This document shows positions 17,014 to 27,629 of a DNA stretch of 32,000 nucleotides, piece by piece. The DNA comes from an uncultured archaeon (lineage in GTDB: Archaea > Asgardarchaeota > Jordiarchaeia > Jordiarchaeales > Jordiarchaeaceae), in assembly GCA_964510585.1 (NCBI GenBank), contig CAZECW010000150.1, forward strand, positions 4,239 to 36,238, read 5' to 3'. The notes below the pieces were generated by a model that did not search any database, was not told where the DNA came from, and saw only the letters and a program-made list of their open reading frames with translations. Every line of letters starts with the position of its first letter. Position 1 is the stretch's first letter. The translations under genes and the position numbers were made by a program.

Positions 17014-17831
17014 TTCACCTTTTCCCTGAGTTTCTTTATTATGGGTTCTTCAAGTAGTAGCTGGGCTAGTTTCTTGGCGGCGACCGCAGGATCCTCTTCC
17101 TTAATGATTATTCCGCCTCCTCTCTGTTTTGGGGTGAATATTCGCACAACCTCTGTGAAGGAGCCACTCAAACCGTATGACTGGGGTTCTCCCCCTATGC
17201 TTGCAAGGTTGAGTTCCTTAATTTCCTTCTTCTTGGCGAGCATTATTTCTCTGAGTGCCGGAATTCTAGGTTCATTTAAACCTTTAATAGCGGTCAAAAG
17301 GACTGGCAAGCGGCTTTCAATGACTTCGTAGCCTTCCTCAGTTTCCCTATGAACCGTTATTCGTTTTTTCTCTGTATCGATTTCAACCTTCTTAACATAA
17401 GTGATGGGAGTTATTCCCAAGTTCTCAGCCAGTTCTGGTCCTACTTGGGCCGTGTCGCCATCAATTGCTCTTGCTCCACATAATATTAAATCGTACTCCA
17501 TTTTTTTAATTGCCTGGGCAAGTGTGTAGGCGGTCGCCCAAGTATCCGAACCAGCGAATGCTCTATCTGTAAGCAGAATTCCTTTATCTGCACCCATCGC
17601 TAAACATCTCAAGAGCGCCTGTCTAGCTTGTGGCGGACCCATTGTTATCACTGTAACTTCTCCTCCATGTTTTTCTTTTAGCCTCACCGCTTCTTCCACA
17701 GCAATTTCGTCGAATGGGTTAACAATAGAAGGTACTCCTTCACGTATTAGTGTATTAGTCTTGGGATCTATCTTGACTTCGGTGACTTCGGGCACCTGCT
17801 TAACACAAACTATTATCTTCATTTTTGCCAA
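17010..17831 (-). CDS. etfB: Electron transfer flavoprotein beta subunit
   Basis: IIVCVKQVP, NPFD, DRAFAGSDT, AIDGDTAQVGP. Confidence 0.93.
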   Translation of the reverse strand: MAKMKIIVCVKQVPEVTEVKIDPKTNTLIREGVPSIVNPFDEIAVEEAVRLKEKHGGEVTVITMGPPQARQALLRCLAMGADKGILLTDRAFAGSDTWATAYTLAQAIKKMEYDLILCGARAIDGDTAQVGPELAENLGITPITYVKKVEIDTEKKRITVHRETEEGYEVIESRLPVLLTAIKGLNEPRIPALREIMLAKKKEIKELNLASIGGEPQSYGLSGSFTEVVRIFTPKQRGGGIIIKEEDPAVAAKKLAQLLLEEPIIKKLREKVK

Positions 17832-18728: not shown

Positions 18729-19964
18729 TTATGTAACCTCTGGTTTTGTTTCATGTTCACAATATTCGTCTCCTTTGGCAACACATTTTACTTCCTGTGT
18801 TGAGCACTTCCTTCCAGTTAGTATTTCGTAGAGTCCGGATATTATTCCGCTAAACCAGAATCCTATGGGTTTTCCAAAGTTTTGGAATTGGTTGCATATG
18901 GGGGAGTTTAAATGTTTTGTGCGGAGCATGTTAGTTGTATCATTGAGTTCGCCAATGAATCGGCCGAATCCTCTTAGTGAATTAAATTTAGTGTATATTG
19001 GTATCGCTTCGCTTAGACTTGGTTTGAATTGTCTCATGAAGTCTTCAACCACTACTCTGCTTCTCTTTTTGCCTTGATTGTAGATTATTTTGTACGTTTC
19101 TTCGTAGCCGAATTTTTCTATCATGGTCTTGATAAATTGTGCCATGTATCTGGTTTCACTTATAATCACTCTTGCACCTAAAAGTTCAACCACACCTCTT
19201 TCAGGCATCTTTAGGTGTTGCTTCATTCTGTGAAATTCTTCCATTATTTCTGTGCTTAATTCGATTCCTCTTCTCCCCACATTATAGAGAATGAGGTCGT
19301 CTACATAGTCCAGTGTGGGTGATTTGGAGACTCTGAGAAATCTTTTATAACTATTGTCCACCTCAAATATTTTAAGCTCAACAACATAATCAAAGATGTG
19401 CTTTAATGTGCTTATTATCGTGTCATCTAACATAGACTTGTTAAAAACGAAAAGCGATGTACCAAACTCACTTAGTAGAATCTTACTCTTGTATATCCAA
19501 TTAATAATTTTGTCTACATCCCTCCCTTTTGACAGCATAATGTTGCTCAAATAACACACATTAAAGCTATGCTCATATTTCTTCATGAATCGAATAGTCC
19601 CATGGAGATAAACGTCAAGATGAAGAATATCTCTTGGATCATCGATGATGAACTTTTCTTCGGATTGGAGTTTTTCGTACATGTTGGTGAAGCCGTCAAC
19701 CAGGAAAAACTTTTTTTCCTTCTCAAATTCTTCAAACCTAGAATTAAAAAACTTTAACCATTCCCTAATCCGCATTGGTGGTAAATCGAGGTCCAGAATT
19801 AATCCATAGTCTCCTTTTTTTAATCTAAAATCCATTATCTGCAAGGGCAAAATCTCACCCATAGTTCCGGTTTCAGTTAACAGTAGGACTTGGGCATTCT
19901 TCTCAAAACCGCCTCGTGTCAAAAAATCGAAGGCAGGAATGCCTGTACTTAACAACTCCATCAC
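18729..19964 (-). CDS. KaiC/RAD55-like (degenerate ATPase) domain fused to V4R domain, paralog 2
   Basis: LSTGIPAFDFLTRGGF, HIFDYVVEL, RFLRVSKS; C-terminal GFGRF, NSPIC, EVKCVAKGDEYCEH. Confidence 0.8.
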   Translation of the reverse strand: MMELLSTGIPAFDFLTRGGFEKNAQVLLLTETGTMGEILPLQIMDFRLKKGDYGLILDLDLPPMRIREWLKFFNSRFEEFEKEKKFFLVDGFTNMYEKLQSEEKFIIDDPRDILHLDVYLHGTIRFMKKYEHSFNVCYLSNIMLSKGRDVDKIINWIYKSKILLSEFGTSLFVFNKSMLDDTIISTLKHIFDYVVELKIFEVDNSYKRFLRVSKSPTLDYVDDLILYNVGRRGIELSTEIMEEFHRMKQHLKMPERGVVELLGARVIISETRYMAQFIKTMIEKFGYEETYKIIYNQGKKRSRVVVEDFMRQFKPSLSEAIPIYTKFNSLRGFGRFIGELNDTTNMLRTKHLNSPICNQFQNFGKPIGFWFSGIISGLYEILTGRKCSTQEVKCVAKGDEYCEHETKPEVT

Positions 19965-20017
19965 TATTCACCCAGGAAGCAAGTAAAAACTCGAGCCTAC
20001 ATTTTCACCTATAGCTT

Positions 20018-21280
20018 TCATACCCGTGAATGTTTTACGATAAATTCGCAATAATCATCCCCCTTTGCTACACATTTTATCTCTTCACACACGTAATGAT
20101 CTCCAGTAAAGATTTCGAAGGCCCCCGCTATTAGTCCCGCCCTGAGCCAACCAGTAGCCTTACCAAGACCTTTGAAATGTGAACAGAAAGGAGAATTTGC
20201 AACTCTAAACCTGTAACTATTTGTTTTTTCGTCAAATGTGAAGTCTGTGGCCCCCTGTCCCCAGAGCTCTGTTAGTTTAGCCAATGATTCAGCCGCCTTT
20301 TTAAGATCAGTTATTTTGAACTGCTCCCTGAAATCTTTAACTAATGGAAAGCCAACTTTTCCCTGATGGTACATAAACTTACTGGCCTCCTCGTATCCGA
20401 ACTCTTCTATCATCATTTCAAAAACCATAGGATAAAATTTTGGGTCCTGAATAATCACTCTCGATTCTAGAAATTCGAGGACGCCTTCTTCTAGCATTTT
20501 CAATTGTTGACTTATATAATCGAAATCCTCAACGGTTTTAGTACTCAGAGCAAATCCTGTGGGTCTTATCTCGTATGGAACAAAATCATCTCGATAAGTA
20601 GGAGATGGTGATTTAACCACCCTCAAATACTTCTGAAACTTTCTGTTCACCTCAAATATTTTAATGTCTAAAACGTAGTCGAACATATGCTCTAGGATTT
20701 TTTGGCTTCTTTCTTCCAGCATACCCTTATCTAAAACAAAGATACACAAGCCGAGCCGGCTAAATCTTGTTATCGCTTGATAAATGAAATTTATGACCTT
20801 GTCCAGTTGCCGTTTCCTAAATAGGAACAAGTTGCTGGAAAACACAAGAATACAAACATTGGGTTTTCGTTGCTCAATTATTTGTGAAAGTTCAGATAAG
20901 TAAGCATTGATGTGGACAATGTCTCTAGGTTTTTCTATTATATGTTCTTCGTTAGAGAGGGGCCCCTCGTACATCCTCGTAAAACCGTCTATCATAAAAA
21001 ACCGTCTATCTTTTTCCAACTCTTCAACGTTGAACTTTTTAAATTTAAACCATTCCCTAATTCTATTTGTGGGAATATCAAAATCTATTATGAAACCCGT
21101 ATCCCCCAGAAATAATCTATTAGCAAACAAGTTAAGAGCCACTATCTCTCCCATGCTTCCCGCTTCGATCAAAAAAAGAACAGAGGAATGCCTGAGAAAT
21201 CCACCGCCACTCAAACCATCTATTTCTAGATTCCCTGAACTAACTAATTCCACAAGGTTCCCCCTTTTGGAAGCTATCAC
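20018..21280 (-). CDS. KaiC/RAD55-like (degenerate ATPase) domain fused to V4R domain, paralog 1
   Basis: VSSGNLEIDGLSGGGF, LEHMFDYVLDI, KYLRVVKS; C-terminal WGQG, NSPFC, AGLIAGAFE, EEIKCVAKGDDYCEF. Confidence 0.8.
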   Translation of the reverse strand: MIASKRGNLVELVSSGNLEIDGLSGGGFLRHSSVLFLIEAGSMGEIVALNLFANRLFLGDTGFIIDFDIPTNRIREWFKFKKFNVEELEKDRRFFMIDGFTRMYEGPLSNEEHIIEKPRDIVHINAYLSELSQIIEQRKPNVCILVFSSNLFLFRKRQLDKVINFIYQAITRFSRLGLCIFVLDKGMLEERSQKILEHMFDYVLDIKIFEVNRKFQKYLRVVKSPSPTYRDDFVPYEIRPTGFALSTKTVEDFDYISQQLKMLEEGVLEFLESRVIIQDPKFYPMVFEMMIEEFGYEEASKFMYHQGKVGFPLVKDFREQFKITDLKKAAESLAKLTELWGQGATDFTFDEKTNSYRFRVANSPFCSHFKGLGKATGWLRAGLIAGAFEIFTGDHYVCEEIKCVAKGDDYCEFIVKHSRV

Positions 21281-22679: not shown

Positions 22680-23031
22680 CCTACTTCACTCTTTAAATTA
22701 AGAAAAAATAAGATCACCTTAAAAAATGTGCTGTACAAAAATATTTGCGTATACTTCTCAGATCAAGAACTGTATGTCTTGGCAACATTTCTCTTTGCTA
22801 TGAAACATATTTTCTTCCTTCACTCGTAGAAACATATGTGGAAGGGTTTGTGTAGAACGATAAAGACCAGAAGGGATGCAGAGGCAAAACTTTATTTATG
22901 AGCGAGAAGCAGATTGAAAACATATTTTTGATTCAAAAACTCTTAACCGTTATATCTTACGAAAAAATTATATCCTCTCTGAAGAATTGTCTCTTGCGAG
23001 TTTATAACACTTTTTAGGAGGTGTTTAAAAA

Positions 23032-24975
23032 ATATCTGAGAAAAGCGATATACGCATAGGTGTCTTTGTCTGCGGCTGAGGCACTAATATATCAGGCGTT
23101 ATCGATGTGAGAGCGTTAAAAGAATACGCTTCTACACTAGCAAACGTTGTTGTGGCTGAGGAGTCAACTTCGCTATGTACAGAAGCAGGCGCAAACCTCA
23201 TCAAAAAGAGCATTAATGAAAATAATTTGAATCGTATAGTAGTGGCGTCCTGCACTCCAATAACCCATGAATCAGTGTTTAAAGCAGTGCTGGAGGATGC
23301 GGGGCTAAATCCTGGATTGCTTGAATTCGTAAACATACGGGAACACGATGCATATGTTCACAGGAATCAACCGGAAGAAGCTCTGGAGAAGGCTAAAGAT
23401 CTAATCAGAGCCGGCGTGGCTCGTGCAAACTTTCTTGAAGAGATCCCCACAAGAGTAATACCCGTGGAGAGAAAATCTCTCGTTATTGGTGGAGGAATTT
23501 CAGGAATTCAAGCAGCTTTGAACCTTGCAAATGATGGTTTTGAAGTCTTTCTAGTTGAAAAGAGCCCTACCATAGGAGGAAAAATGGCTCAACTAGACAG
23601 AATCTTTCCAACGGATGACTGTGCGATATGAATTCTAGGTCCTAAAATGCTTGAAGTAGCAAGAGAACGTAATGTTAAATTATTAACCTACTCAGAAGTG
23701 GAGAAGATAGAAGGGTACTTGGGTAACTTTAAGGTGACAATTAAGAAGAAACCTAGGTACATCATCGCTGAAAAATGCAATGGTTGCGGTGTCTGTGAAG
23801 AGGTATGTCCAGTATTCAGACCAAAAGAGTTTGACGAAAATATGGGAATCAGAAAAGCAATCTACATTCCTTTCCCCCAAGCAGTGCCCAAAATAGCTAT
23901 AATCGATATGGAACACTGTATAAAGTGTCGACTCTGCGAAAAAGTGTGCGAATTTAAAGCAATTGACTTGGACCAAAAGGAAGAAAAAATAGAGTTAAGT
24001 GTAGGTACAATCATAGTCGCAACCGGATATGATCAGTATAATCCAGAAGGAAAATATGGTTATGGCAAGTATGAGAATGTCATTACACAGCTTCAACTGG
24101 AGCGATTACTTGCACCTAATGGACCAACCGGCGGCCACTTGGTGAAATTATCTGATTTGAAGAAACCTGAGAGTATTGTTATGATTCAATGTGTTGGCTC
24201 TAGAGATTTGAATTCCAATCAGTACTGCTCTGACGTATGCTGTATGGTGGCCATAAAGAATGCAAAGCTAATAAAGCAGGAATATCCAGACGTAGAGGTA
24301 ACAATCTGTTACATGGATATAAGGTGCGCAGGGAAGGCTTGGGAAGAATACTATACCAGAGCGAGAGAATATAACATAAAATTCATTAGGGGAAATGTCG
24401 GCTCAGTTAGAGAGAATCCCGAGACAAAGAAATTGATCGTTAGAGTTGAAGATACTCTGAACAGTGAGATAAAAAGGATAGAGGCTGATTTAGTGGTTCT
24501 TTCAGTTGCAATGGTTCCTTCCAAAGACTCCGAAAGGCTAGCAAGCATCCTGCGCCTAGATAGAAGTCCAGGAGGTTTCTATAAAGAGAGACACTCGGTG
24601 CTTAGTCCAATAGATACTAAGGTTCCAGGAATATACGTTGCAGGCGCGGCTCATGGACCCAAATCTGTACCAGAAGCTGTGGCTCATGCCAGTGGTGCAG
24701 CTGCTGCAGCAGCGATACCCCTAATTAAAGGTAGGTACACGATAGAACTCGTATCCGCTACAGTTGATAAAGATCGGTGTAATCTGTGTGAATTGTGCGT
24801 AAATGTATGTCCGATTGGTGCAATTACGGTCAAGGATGGTGCTATTGAGATTAATGAGATAATCTGTAAAGGTTGTGGTTCTTGCGCTTCGATGTGTCCT
24901 TCTAGAGCTATGACTGTGAGGTTTTACAGGCCAAAACAGTTTGAAACGTACATTGATGCTCTGTTTACAACTTAG
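23032..24975 (+). CDS. hdrA: Heterodisulfide reductase subunit A-like selenoprotein (Sec at codons 16 and 200), ~647 aa
   Basis: One continuous frame apart from TGA 23077-23079 (RIGVFVCG-U-GTNISG) and TGA 23629-23631 (TDDCAI-U-ILGPKM), both at conserved Cys positions; FAD motif, QCVGSR, ferredoxin domains; ATA start inferred. Confidence 0.9.
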
Positions 24976-24989
24976 TCGGGGTGTTCTTT

Positions 24990-25421
24990 ATGAGTTTAAA
25001 TTTTGAAGTTTTCACTCCCAAAATTGCTGCGTTCTTATGCTTGAAGTGAGGTTACGGTGCAGCTGATATGGCTGGAACAATCAGAAGCCAATACCCAACA
25101 TCAATAAGAGCGGTTAAGGTTAGGTGTTTAGGCATTGTGCATCCTGACTACATACTAAGGGCTTTATGCAAAGGAGCAGATGGGGTACTTTTAATAGGGT
25201 GACGAATAGGAGAATGCGACTATGAAACAGGGAACATATCTGCAACTAAACATGTGGGATACTTAAAACAGGTATTGCGTGCTATAGGATTAAGTGAAGA
25301 ACGTTTGCAAATTTACTACTGTTCCTCAGCAGAGGGATCATTATTCGCTGAAATAATCAAAAAGGTAACAGAAGTGATCGCGAAACTAGGACCCAATCCA
25401 ATTAGGCAAACTAAAAGCTAA
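24990..25421 (+). CDS. mvhD: MvhD/VhuD [2Fe-2S] subunit, selenoprotein (Sec at codons 20 and 71), 143 aa; absent from ORF track
   Basis: MSLNFEVFTPKIAAFLCLK-U-GYGAADMAG...VRCLG...GADGVLLIG-U-RIGECDYETGN...CSSAEG...LGPNP; TGA at 25047 and 25200, TAA 25419-25421. Confidence 0.93.
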
Positions 25422-25466
25422 GTAGTGTGAGCCTCGTAGGTAAACCTTTGACTATGAGGGGACTAC
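25422..25466 (+). promoter_or_regulatory. Putative SECIS element (eukaryote/Asgard-type kink-turn hairpin) in the mvhD 3' UTR
   Basis: GUAG/CUAC stem, UGU bulge, tandem GA/GA (GUGA...GGAC), CCUCGUAG/CUAUGAGG helix, AAA in apical loop. Confidence 0.75.
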
Positions 25467-25507
25467 CCCCTTAAGGCGAGGGGAAGCTATGACTAATCTA
25501 CTCTCAA

Positions 25508-26623
25508 ATGAAAGTTAATGGAACGGGAATTTCGGAATTGAAGACAGGTGACTATGTAATAGCGAGCAGTAAGGACGAAAGATTATCTGCAACATATGGA
25601 GGAGGAGCCATCCAAACTATTCTCAAAAAAATGCTGGAAAATAAATTTGTGGAAAAAGTTGTGCTTTTTCAAGAAAAAAAGGATAGATACAGTCTGGCTC
25701 CAGTAGTAATAGAAAATCCAGACCAACTAACCTCTATACCTCTTTCTCAATTCAGTGCGTACTACCTTTCTGGACTTAATAGTGTGCCCAAATATATCCA
25801 GCAGAATTTAAAAAACGCTGGAAAAATAGGTGTTATAGCAAAGCCATGCGATATTAGAGCTATGGTTGAACTAGAAAAAAGGAAGCAAGCAAATTTAGAT
25901 AACTTGGTAATTTTGGGGGAGGAATGTCACGGCAAGGTTTCACCAAAAAAGGTTCAAAAAATATTAGAGGAAGAACGGGTTGACGCAAGTAAAGTAATTA
26001 GTGAGATGATAGACGGCAATAAGTTTAATATTAGTTTTGAGGGTGGAAACAAAAATTATATTTTGGGGAAGAAGCTTGATTTGGAAGAGAGTTGTAAAAG
26101 GTGTGGGGAGAGGGAACCAAATATTTCAGACATTTCATTTCAAGTTGTTAAGGACAACGATAAAACAAAAACTTTAATACATATAAACTCAGAAAGGGGA
26201 TTAAAAATTATTAAGTTAAGCTCAGAAGAATTGAACTTGGAAAAAGCAAAGGAAGAAGTGTTGGAACACGCTGAGAGAAATATGGCTCTATCAATTTTGA
26301 AGGCAGAAAGGTACAAATTAAAACAATTTAAAAATTTTGATAAATTATCCGAGGTAGAGGCATATAACTATTTCAAGAAATTAATTGAAAATTGTAGGAA
26401 ATGCGGAAACTGCATAAGGGCATGCCCAATCTGTGTCTGCTTAGATTGTACAGTAATTAAGCAGAGGAAGGAAATAGAACCAACTTTATACTTCCTACTT
26501 AGGATGGGACACATGGGCAAAGCATGCGTAAATTGCGGCATCTGCGATTCATCATGTAATTTTCTGGATCTGGGGCCGAGCCTGATATTCCATAGGCTTA
26601 GCGAAATTTCTAAAAAAGGATGA
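25508..26623 (+). CDS. FdhB/FrhB-like F420-interacting beta subunit with C-terminal 2x[4Fe-4S]
   Basis: GGGAIQTILKKML, KPCDIRAMVELEKRKQ, LGEECHG, CKRC, CRKCGNCIRACPICVC, CVNCGICDSSC. Confidence 0.8.
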   Translation: MKVNGTGISELKTGDYVIASSKDERLSATYGGGAIQTILKKMLENKFVEKVVLFQEKKDRYSLAPVVIENPDQLTSIPLSQFSAYYLSGLNSVPKYIQQNLKNAGKIGVIAKPCDIRAMVELEKRKQANLDNLVILGEECHGKVSPKKVQKILEEERVDASKVISEMIDGNKFNISFEGGNKNYILGKKLDLEESCKRCGEREPNISDISFQVVKDNDKTKTLIHINSERGLKIIKLSSEELNLEKAKEEVLEHAERNMALSILKAERYKLKQFKNFDKLSEVEAYNYFKKLIENCRKCGNCIRACPICVCLDCTVIKQRKEIEPTLYFLLRMGHMGKACVNCGICDSSCNFLDLGPSLIFHRLSEISKKG

Positions 26624-26743: not shown

Positions 26744-27412
26744 TTACTTTGTTGGTTTCTTTAACTTCTCTAAGATCTCGTCCCATATTCGTGTGTGTTC
26801 CCCTGAATAGTGGAATTTGTTTCTTTCTATTTCTATAACATCCTTAACGGGGCAACTGTTAATACAAGCTCCACAAAGAATACATTTTTCTTTGTCAATT
26901 TCAACCTTTCCCGACTTCTCCCAGCTCTTTCTTTTCGGGATACTTAACGCCCCGACTGGGCATATCTCCACACATGTGGAGCATCCTCCTGGACACTTTT
27001 CGTTGTGTATTTTTATCTCTCCCTCGAAAAACTTGTATGCTTTTCGGCCTGTTTTCTCACAGTATACTTCTGTTTTTTCAATTTTGGGCAAGGCTCCTTT
27101 CTCAAGAATTATAAGTTCATGTTCTCCATCTATGGTCAGCTCGAAACACTCAAATGGGCATAATATTTCACAGACACCGCAGAAGGAACACTTTTTTTGA
27201 TCTATTACTACTGTGGGGGCACTTGTTAAACCCTTCAGGGAGGCTCCTACTGGTCCACGCTGTATAGCTTGCTTTGGACAGGCTGTTAAACAGATTCCGC
27301 ATCCAATGCACTTGTTTCGGTCAAATGTAAGTTTTAGGTGTTTTGTCAACATTTTCAATTCAATAACCACTTTGTCAGTGTCTACTGTTTTTGAAAATGC
27401 TGGAATTGCCAA
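26744..27412 (-). CDS. Polyferredoxin (4x[4Fe-4S], FwdF-like)
   Basis: CIGCGICLTACP, CSFCGVCEILCP, CPGGCSTCVEICP, CILCGACINSCP; start placed at TTG 27412 after AAGGTG (alternative starts up to 27463). Confidence 0.8.
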   Translation of the reverse strand: MAIPAFSKTVDTDKVVIELKMLTKHLKLTFDRNKCIGCGICLTACPKQAIQRGPVGASLKGLTSAPTVVIDQKKCSFCGVCEILCPFECFELTIDGEHELIILEKGALPKIEKTEVYCEKTGRKAYKFFEGEIKIHNEKCPGGCSTCVEICPVGALSIPKRKSWEKSGKVEIDKEKCILCGACINSCPVKDVIEIERNKFHYSGEHTRIWDEILEKLKKPTK

Positions 27413-27629
27413 GATAGACACCTTGTAACTTTTCATTATCTTCCAATACATAAAATTGTCCAACCTTTAAAACTATCGAATTTTTTAAGGAATACCAGAA
27501 ATTTTTTATAATCATACTCTAACTGTAAAGTGGAGATCAAGGAAAAGTTATGTATATTCAAATTTGTTTTGGTTAACCATGAATTTGGGGACCGCATAGA
27601 ATAAACTTTTATGTGGATGAGGTGTAAAA

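What the first reader, a model, noticed from the sequence alone, without database searches (positions are those of the whole stretch)
23032..24975. HdrA with two in-frame UGA codons, including an N-terminal CxU
Seen: the two ORF-track fragments are in one frame, separated by TGA 23629 in DDCAI-U-ILGPKM; a second TGA at 23077 lies in GVFVCG-U-GTNI. Known: the DCxIU site is the Sec position of methanococcal HdrA, and the N-terminal motif is normally CxC. Inference: a two-Sec HdrA with selenium at N-terminal Fe-S cluster ligand positions; whether the CxU site is already described needs checking. UGA is also an ordinary stop elsewhere here (e.g. 7153, 15596), so this is recoding rather than a code change.
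Basis: partly seen in the sequence, partly recalled or inferred. Interest (0 to 1): 0.8.

Follow-up and report, generated by a model that had tools for sequence, protein, structure and literature searches.

The report
Two-selenocysteine HdrA of Asgard archaeon
This apparently broken redox-enzyme gene of a Jordarchaeia-type Asgard archaeon has two in-frame UGA codons that are very likely read as selenocysteine, a gene type described in 2016 whose N-terminal site is already catalogued, so it is ordinary apart from the untested idea that this selenium binds the enzyme's mobile iron-sulfur cluster.

Summary
TGA 23077 (residue 16, C-G-U) and TGA 23629 (residue 200, C-A-I-U) lie in one 647-codon frame that matches solved HdrA structures. 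The next gene, mvhD/vhuD, has two more TGAs, and a eukaryote-like SECIS with compensatory base changes follows its stop. The genome encodes SelB, SepSecS, a PSTK homologue, a TGA-containing SelD and a tRNA-Sec-like gene with two likely introns. TGA at residue 16 recurs in 41 of 52 non-methanogen relatives and 0 of 28 methanogen/ANME relatives. It is not new: multi-Sec HdrA-VhuD pairs sharing one SECIS were described in Lokiarchaeota (PMC4989117), and the supplement of PMC11227280 shows Sec at this CxU site hundreds of times, including in Jordarchaeia. This scan also found it before on other DNA. Three points remain inferred. Sec16 is probably a ligand of the N-terminal shuttle cluster HA3, contrary to the 2016 statement that these sites are not cluster ligands. 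The gene likely starts at ATA. A syntenic FdhB/ElpB-like gene suggests F420H2 as electron donor. Verdict: real, already known, low interest.

The parts
23017..23023 (+). Shine-Dalgarno-like GGAGGTG
   Evidence: sequence; GGAGGTG kept at similar spacing in the 7 relatives shown
23032..23034 (+). Likely start codon ATA (inferred); in-frame TAA at 23026 just upstream
   Evidence: ATT at the same place in 5 same-genus orthologue loci
23032..24975 (+). hdrA, 647 aa when both TGA are read through: N-terminal Fe-S domain, FAD/thioredoxin-reductase domain, inserted and C-terminal ferredoxin domains
   Evidence: pLDDT 91.5; TM 0.89 to 5ODC and 8RVU
23071..23079 (+). C14-G15-U16 (TGA 23077-79). With C49 (23176) and C74 (23251) these are the only Cys/Sec in the first 140 residues
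   Evidence: all four columns invariant when TGA is read as Cys
23620..23631 (+). C197-x-x-U200 (TGA 23629-31), the canonical Sec site of HdrA
24990..25421 (+). mvhD/vhuD with two in-frame TGA: U20 (25047-49) and U71 (25200-02); stop TAA 25419-21
   Evidence: PF02662, E 2.5e-41; both align to X in VhuD of 9SFI
25421..25476 (+). Eukaryote-like (loki-type) SECIS: RUGA core 25427-30, 8-bp stem 25432-39/25452-59, GUAAA loop, GA 25461-62, short lower helix; followed by a GC hairpin 25467-83
25508..26623 (+). FdhB/ElpB-like (FrhB family) flavo-Fe-S subunit, likely F420H2-oxidising partner (inferred)
   Evidence: 7BKB_E E 1.7e-43; 8RVU_E E 1.7e-35; follows hdrA-mvhD in relatives

Best explanation
The region holds an hdrA-mvhD gene pair with four in-frame UGA codons, which are very likely decoded as selenocysteine with the help of one SECIS hairpin behind mvhD, giving a likely electron-bifurcating HdrA in which Sec16 probably binds the mobile N-terminal iron-sulfur cluster and Sec200 probably helps relay electrons at the flavin. 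Shown: reading frame, codons, hairpin with compensatory changes, Sec machinery genes, tRNA-Sec-like gene, conservation. Inferred: translation starts at ATA 23032. SelB with Sec-tRNA, recruited by the 3' SECIS 2350, 1798, 380 and 227 bases downstream of the four UGAs, inserts Sec. Electrons likely enter from F420H2 through the adjacent FdhB/ElpB-like subunit and pass to the MvhD [2Fe-2S] cluster. They then cross the Cys197/Sec200 pair and MvhD Sec20 (equivalents of the 'additional cysteines' Cys202/205 and Cys16 in PMC13580544) to FAD. The high-potential electron would go to an HdrBC-type acceptor encoded elsewhere, and the low-potential electron to the shuttle cluster HA3 held by C14, U16, C49 and C74. 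The disulfide substrate in this lineage is not known.
For: Machinery: SelB 302 bits, over cut-off. SepSecS 512 bits against a cut-off of 225. SelD over cut-off with TGA in G-U-S-C-K. PSTK homologue E 5.7e-61 in the same cluster as SelB and SepSecS. tRNA-Sec-like gene with UCA anticodon, 9-bp acceptor and 4-bp T stem at G000:C146 about 17103-17256 (-), conserved in G004, G005, G021, G031. SECIS: upper stem 98.3% paired, 8 of 8 pairs with two-sided changes, slid controls 28-43%. The model hits 23 of 41 held-out Sec-type loci at E<0.01 and 0 of 12 Cys-type loci at E<=1. Conservation: TGA at 200 in 52 of 52 and at 16 in 41 of 52 non-methanogen rows, 0 of 28 methanogen/ANME rows. Codons 7-25 show more synonymous than non-synonymous changes in 5 of 5 same-genus loci. 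A second two-TGA hdrA-mvhD pair with its own hairpin lies on C76. The N-terminal domain carries one Fe-S cluster (PMC9012536) and has just four Cys/Sec here. The extra TGAs in relatives fall on three of those four positions (16, 49, 74), never on 14 or 197. cofD and cofE homologues are present.
Against: No RNA, ribosome or protein data for this gene. PSTK scores below its curated cut-off (207 against 290.5). The tRNA gene does not reach the Rfam gathering score: relatives score 27 and 25.9 bits against 47, and the G000 copy was not listed; its introns are inferred. The SECIS model misses 18 of 41 held-out Sec loci, including the genome's own C76 paralogue. I read no text or coordinates naming the HA3 ligand residues (searches found none). 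PMC4989117 states that these Sec sites are not cluster ligands. Residue 16 is Cys in 10 of 55 Sec-type rows of the tree, so Sec is dispensable there. No hdrBC lies next to this gene in the window, and NCBIfam HdrA models score below their cut-offs.
Confidence: 0.88

Rival explanations
1. Sec is inserted at both sites, but Sec16 acts as a redox-active thiol/selenol and not as an iron ligand, as the 2016 paper proposed for the extra Sec sites.
For: PMC4989117 Discussion says the Sec sites are not those of cluster coordination. In the crystal structure one HA3 ligand comes from the partner's Cys197, so only three N-terminal cysteines might be needed.
Against: That statement counted four clusters and predates the 2017 structure, which has an N-terminal cluster. 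In cryo-EM states Cys202/205 hold another ligand while HA3 persists, which leaves the four N-terminal Cys as the likely ligands (inference).
Confidence: 0.15
2. Translation starts at GTG 23107 (codon 26), so TGA 23077 is never read and the protein has a single Sec.
For: No ATG/GTG/TTG lies upstream of TGA 23077 in frame, and the ORF caller starts at 23107. GTG26 is kept in the closest relative.
Against: No canonical start lies in codons 1-30 of L025 and L026, and codons 7-25 are under purifying selection. Starting at 26 would delete C14 and U16. Paralogues with ATG/GTG starts also carry TGA16.
Confidence: 0.04
3. The gene is a pseudogene, or the TGAs are assembly errors.
For: A decayed copy of this operon with frameshifts exists on contig C179. 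One relative (L072) has a TGA at a non-cysteine position.
Against: The frame is otherwise intact; the same codons appear in other runs and in dozens of genomes at the same columns; a SECIS is present.
Confidence: 0.01
4. UGA is reassigned genome-wide to a standard amino acid.
For: Four in-frame UGAs occur in two adjacent genes.
Against: TGA ends 298 of 1457 long frames; in-frame TGAs occur only at cysteine columns of known selenoprotein families; Cys-type hdrA paralogues in the same genome use Cys codons.
Confidence: 0.01

Closest known systems
Multi-Sec HdrA-VhuD tandem genes with one shared lokiSECIS in Lokiarchaeota (PMC4989117, Mol Biol Evol 2016; I read passages and section 10, not Fig. 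3 or the supplement)
   Same: hdrA directly upstream of two-Sec vhuD with a short spacer (14 bases here); canonical Sec at about 200 always present; one RUGA..GA hairpin behind vhuD acting over about 2 kb; extra Sec at conserved Cys. I found five TGA columns (16, 49, 74, 200, 593), the number that paper reports.
   Different: The host is Jordarchaeia/Freyarchaeia-like; loop GUAAA rather than AAAAA, 8 canonical pairs in the upper stem; likely ATA start; FdhB/ElpB-like gene follows.
Asgard selenoproteome survey (PMC11227280, ISME J 2024; passages, outline, and searches plus parts 1 and 99 of Supplementary data 2)
   Same: HdrA rows of Sifarchaeia, Jordarchaeia and Lokiarchaeia carry X (read as Sec; rows are labelled _U) at the CxX site: VCRXG 238, VCEXG 66, ICQXG 56, VCGXG 2 occurrences, sequences being repeated across files. 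G[U/G]AAA loops are described.
   Different: The main text has 0 hits for 'CxU', 'two Sec' and 'multiple Sec'. One Jordarchaeia row begins only at VCGXG, consistent with a missed non-AUG start.
Sec-HdrA and VhuD of Methanococcus maripaludis (PDB 9SFI; PMC13518236, passages)
   Same: Sec197 equals residue 200; both VhuD Sec positions match.
   Different: The methanococcal N-terminal motif is CxC; the electron donor there is Vhu hydrogenase or Fdh.
Elp-Hdr and Fdh-Hdr complexes (PDB 8RVU, 7BKB; PMC12350162 passages; PMC13580544 passages and section 6)
   Same: HdrA + MvhD/ElpC + FdhB/ElpB module, mobile arm with shuttle cluster HA3.
   Different: Those HdrA and MvhD-type subunits use Cys at these sites; no fdhA/elpA or hdrBC lies beside this gene in the window.

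Membership tests
HdrA | FAD-binding thioredoxin-reductase domain with GGGxxG and the C..CxxxCC cluster motif | tested here: met
   VIGGGISGIQ and IQCVGSRDLNSNQYCSDVCC; Pfam; PDB hits E 1e-178 to 1e-228
HdrA | N-terminal Fe-S domain plus inserted and C-terminal 2x[4Fe-4S] domains | tested here: met
   Cys positions; model and Foldseek TM 0.89 to 5ODC/8RVU
HdrA | Score above a curated NCBIfam HdrA cut-off | tested here: inconclusive
   834 against 1100, 668 against 1400, 636 against 1300; these models are 762-777 positions long, longer than this protein
HdrA | Electron bifurcation in complex with HdrBC | not testable with these tools
   CCG-domain genes, including ones next to other hdrA copies, exist elsewhere in the genome; no activity data
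Asgard multi-Sec HdrA-VhuD with shared SECIS | In-frame UGA at canonical position about 200 plus further UGA at conserved Cys | tested here: met
Asgard multi-Sec HdrA-VhuD with shared SECIS | Two-Sec vhuD immediately downstream on the same strand | tested here: met
Asgard multi-Sec HdrA-VhuD with shared SECIS | Single eukaryote-like SECIS (RUGA..GA core, adenines in loop) behind vhuD | tested here: met
   only one model hit in the whole 32-kb window (this element was in the training set)
Archaeal Sec system | SelB, SepSecS, SelD | tested here: met
Archaeal Sec system | PSTK | tested here: inconclusive
   Full-length match E 5.7e-61 beside SelB/SepSecS but below curated cut-off
Archaeal Sec system | tRNA-Sec (UCA anticodon, 9/4 fold, long variable arm) | tested here: met
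   C146 (-) gene with two loop inserts, conserved in 4 relatives; below Rfam gathering score
Selenoprotein | Selenium present in the protein | not testable with these tools
   needs proteomics or 75Se labelling

The most novel reading that the evidence does not exclude
Asgard HdrA-MvhD modules put selenium along the gated electron path of flavin-based bifurcation. Sec16 (and in relatives Sec49 or Sec74) would be a direct ligand of the mobile HA3 shuttle cluster, a natural selenolate-ligated [4Fe-4S] centre. It appears old in the Asgard Sec-HdrA clade and repeatedly swapped for Cys. In this lineage the module would be fed by F420H2 through the adjacent FdhB/ElpB-like subunit and translated from an ATA start. 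I did not find the ligand reading in the papers listed; earlier notes of this scan raised it.
Probability: 0.5. Interest if true: 0.4.

Novelty: already known. Interest (0 to 1): 0.16.

Why it matters
For annotation: gene callers split this gene in two and clip its start, hiding a complete HdrA-MvhD module. [quoted passage not shown] Natural pairs of close orthologues with Sec or Cys at residue 16 (for example L030/L034, L035/L031, L064/L061) offer a ready comparison. The phenomenon itself has been in print since 2016.

Tried and rejected
ARAGORN found 5-6 tRNAs genome-wide at default settings and no credible tRNA-Sec. Rfam RF01852 found none in G000 or in 5 same-genus genomes, and my intron-free descriptor failed. 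These blanks reflect introns, not absence (PMC11291895 reports introns in 92-95% of tRNA genes of related genomes). The first SECIS descriptor missed many close orthologues. The second gave 2 genome-wide hits, both behind TGA-bearing mvhD genes, against 8, 1 and 4 in shuffles, and 27 of 53 Sec against 0 of 8 Cys loci, but it was written after seeing the elements. Folding the single strand gave only z -2.0. The covariance model found no element at selD. Alignment A2 (28 rows) was out of register, so pairs were counted on 15 rows that I chose (A4). No RNA holder was listed. The idea that the non-AUG start is specific to selenoprotein genes was not supported: the C76 Sec paralogue uses ATG, and several non-selenoprotein genes look ATT/ACG/CTG-started. 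A broader enrichment test was inconclusive: 5 of 11 frames without a canonical start, against a 16% per-codon background with about 1.7 codons tested per frame. Searches for a text naming HA3 ligand residues or Sec-ligated cluster potentials gave nothing usable. The supplement of PMC4989117 was too large to read, and Supplementary Data 11 of PMC11291895 was not in the part held; either may name residue 16 explicitly. The careful tree did not finish; the quick tree was used (L024 and L050 left out, L072 not included, no methanococcal outgroup).

Full report
Observation. The frame 23032-24975 gives 647 residues with two internal TGA codons, at residue 16 (C14-G-U16) and residue 200 (C197-A-I-U200). 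Read through, it matches five PDB HdrA sequences at E 1e-178 or better, and its model (mean pLDDT 91.5) superposes on 5ODC and 8RVU with TM 0.89. Residue 200 is Cys197 of 5ODC and the X197 of 9SFI; residue 16 is the second cysteine of the CxC motif. Contigs from other runs agree at both codons. TGA closes 298 of 1457 long frames in the genome, so the code is not changed.

Surroundings. Fourteen bases after the hdrA stop begins mvhD/vhuD (24990-25421) with TGA at residues 20 and 71, both aligning to the X residues of VhuD in 9SFI. Directly behind its stop lies a hairpin with an RUGA core, an 8-bp stem, a GUAAA loop and GA. On 15 chosen homologues the upper stem is 98.3% paired, with two-sided changes in 8 of 8 pairs, against 28-43% for slid controls (kin are not independent). 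A model built from them hit 23 of 41 held-out Sec-type loci at E<0.01 and 0 of 12 Cys-type loci; it missed the genome's own C76 element. Next comes an FdhB/ElpB-like gene. It also follows hdrA-mvhD in 8 of the 20 relatives searched (G002, G004, G006-G010, G017) and lies elsewhere in G001, G003 and G005. cofD and cofE homologues are present.

Machinery. SelB, SepSecS and a PSTK homologue (below cut-off) cluster on C146; SelD on C193 has its own TGA. Standard tools missed tRNA-Sec. A motif search (motif recalled) found a UCA-anticodon gene with a 9-bp acceptor, long variable arm and 4-bp T stem about 1 kb behind SepSecS. It has inserts in the D and T loops and is conserved in four relatives. Rfam scores two relatives as tRNA-Sec only weakly. 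Multi-intron tRNAs are reported for this group (PMC11291895, passages).

Distribution. The closest named relative is a Candidatus Jordarchaeia genome at 88% identity. They are mostly Asgard-labelled, with some unlabelled and two labelled Thermoproteota or Bathyarchaeota. All 52 have TGA at 200, 41 at 16 (one row does not cover it), 4 at 49, 3 at 74 and 1 at 593; 28 methanogen/ANME rows have none. A partly overlapping set of 68 loci, in part chosen for TGA count, gave TGA at 16 in 45, at 49 in 7, at 74 in 9, at 200 in 56, and never at 14 or 197. The dropped row L072 has TGA at 16, 74 and 200 and one on a non-cysteine column. In a quick tree, 55 Sec-type rows are separated from 11 Cys rows (SH-aLRT 97). 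U16 occurs in both paralogue groups and its label needs 8 changes, which suggests an old site with repeated swaps to Cys; there is no proper root.

Start codon. An in-frame TAA at 23026 leaves ATA 23032, 8 bases behind GGAGGTG, as the likely start; same-genus orthologues have ATT there and some more distant ones ACG. Codons 7-25 show 4/1, 8/3, 7/3, 8/4 and 10/3 synonymous/non-synonymous differences in five same-genus loci and 7/7 in L028; the L090 comparison was out of register. This argues against a start at GTG 23107. The habit does not look specific to selenoprotein genes.

Mechanism. Shown: sequence, hairpin, machinery genes, conservation. Inferred: the single SECIS directs Sec into four UGAs up to 2350 bases upstream, as proposed for Lokiarchaeota (PMC4989117). 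Sec200 and MvhD Sec20 correspond to two of the three 'additional cysteines' placed between the MvhD [2Fe-2S] cluster and FAD (PMC13580544 section 6; offsets). In M. maripaludis the Cys-Sec197 pair is proposed as a redox relay (PMC13518236, passages), while in the crystal structure Cys197 binds the N-terminal cluster of the partner subunit (PMC9012536, passages). The N-terminal domain has exactly four Cys/Sec (14, 16, 49, 74) and one cluster, HA3, the shuttle for the low-potential electron. Sec16 is therefore probably an HA3 ligand (about 0.75 on its own); I could not read coordinates. The electron donor is likely F420H2 via the FdhB/ElpB-like subunit; the acceptor is an HdrBC-type partner encoded elsewhere, with unknown disulfide.

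Prior art. PMC4989117 (passages, section 10) describes Loki HdrA genes with up to four Sec at five positions and one SECIS behind vhuD. PMC9723677 (passages) lists HdrA and MvhD as selenoproteins of Jordarchaeia. Supplementary data 2 of PMC11227280 carries X at this CxX site in hundreds of rows, including VCGXG in a Jordarchaeia HdrA. A 2026 review table still lists one Sec for HdrA (PMC13188914, passages), so the multi-Sec form is under-recognised but published. Eight listed earlier notes of this scan were returned, six of them on multi-Sec HdrA in other genomes with the same verdict. PMC6019823 and PMC12350162 were seen as passages only.

Verdict. A correct annotation catch of a known kind. 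Interest 0.16; the residual idea, selenium on the shuttle cluster, is plausible and testable but not shown.

Noticed in passing
G000:C146 about 17103-17256 (-); L174, L175, L177, L178: tRNA-Sec-like gene with two inserts (D loop and T loop, likely introns), missed by ARAGORN and Rfam; it lies in the PSTK-SelB-SepSecS cluster next to a SelD/AIRS-family gene (C146:17586-18236).
   Followed up: partly
window 23032; G000 C20:77568, C12:6640, C37:3112, C64:4939, C110:1298, C210:312 (0-based motif offsets, + strand): Apparent near-cognate starts (ATA, CTG, ACG, ATT) 6-8 bases behind GGAGGTG. Among 69 long frames behind that motif, ATG/GTG/TTG opened 22/12/16 and 19 had none; in a wider set GTG 64, ATG 56, TTG 52. 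Earlier scan notes report the habit in Loki-type genomes.
   Followed up: partly
G000:C76:13316-15800 (L070): Second two-Sec hdrA plus two-Sec mvhD with its own SECIS-like hairpin, in a cluster with hdrC/hdrB-like genes, a 1028-codon double HdrA and a Cys-type mvhD.
   Followed up: partly
G000:C179:283-1131 (L071): Decayed copy of a Sec-type hdrA-mvhD operon (frameshifts, internal deletion joining hdrA near residue 170 to mvhD near residue 48) that still keeps a well-scoring SECIS (41 bits); could also be a small mis-binned contig.
   Followed up: partly
window 25467-25483: A second GC-rich hairpin directly follows the SECIS and is kept in many relatives, even in loci where the SECIS model gave no or weak hits (L030, L031, L034-L036).
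   Followed up: no
L030, L031, L034, L035, L036: Family f2 MvhD has an insertion inside the CxxU motif (LCWK...PQK-U in L030), and no clear SECIS was found behind mvhD in these loci although they carry TGAs.
   Followed up: no
L072 (G128:C125): Sec-type hdrA with a fourth TGA on a non-cysteine column (residue about 163), probably a nonsense change.
   Followed up: no
window 26744-27463 (-): FwdF-like polyferredoxin gene converging on the hdrA-mvhD-fdhB operon (NF042909 E 7.6e-41, below cut-off); a possible low-potential electron acceptor.
   Followed up: no
window 18729-21280 (-); G000:C76:17362-21338 (-): Tandem ORFs of about 410-430 aa that look like KaiC/RecA-type ATPase domains fused to V4R-like domains (by eye, not tested); similar-looking tandem ORFs lie behind the C76 hdrA cluster.
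   Followed up: no
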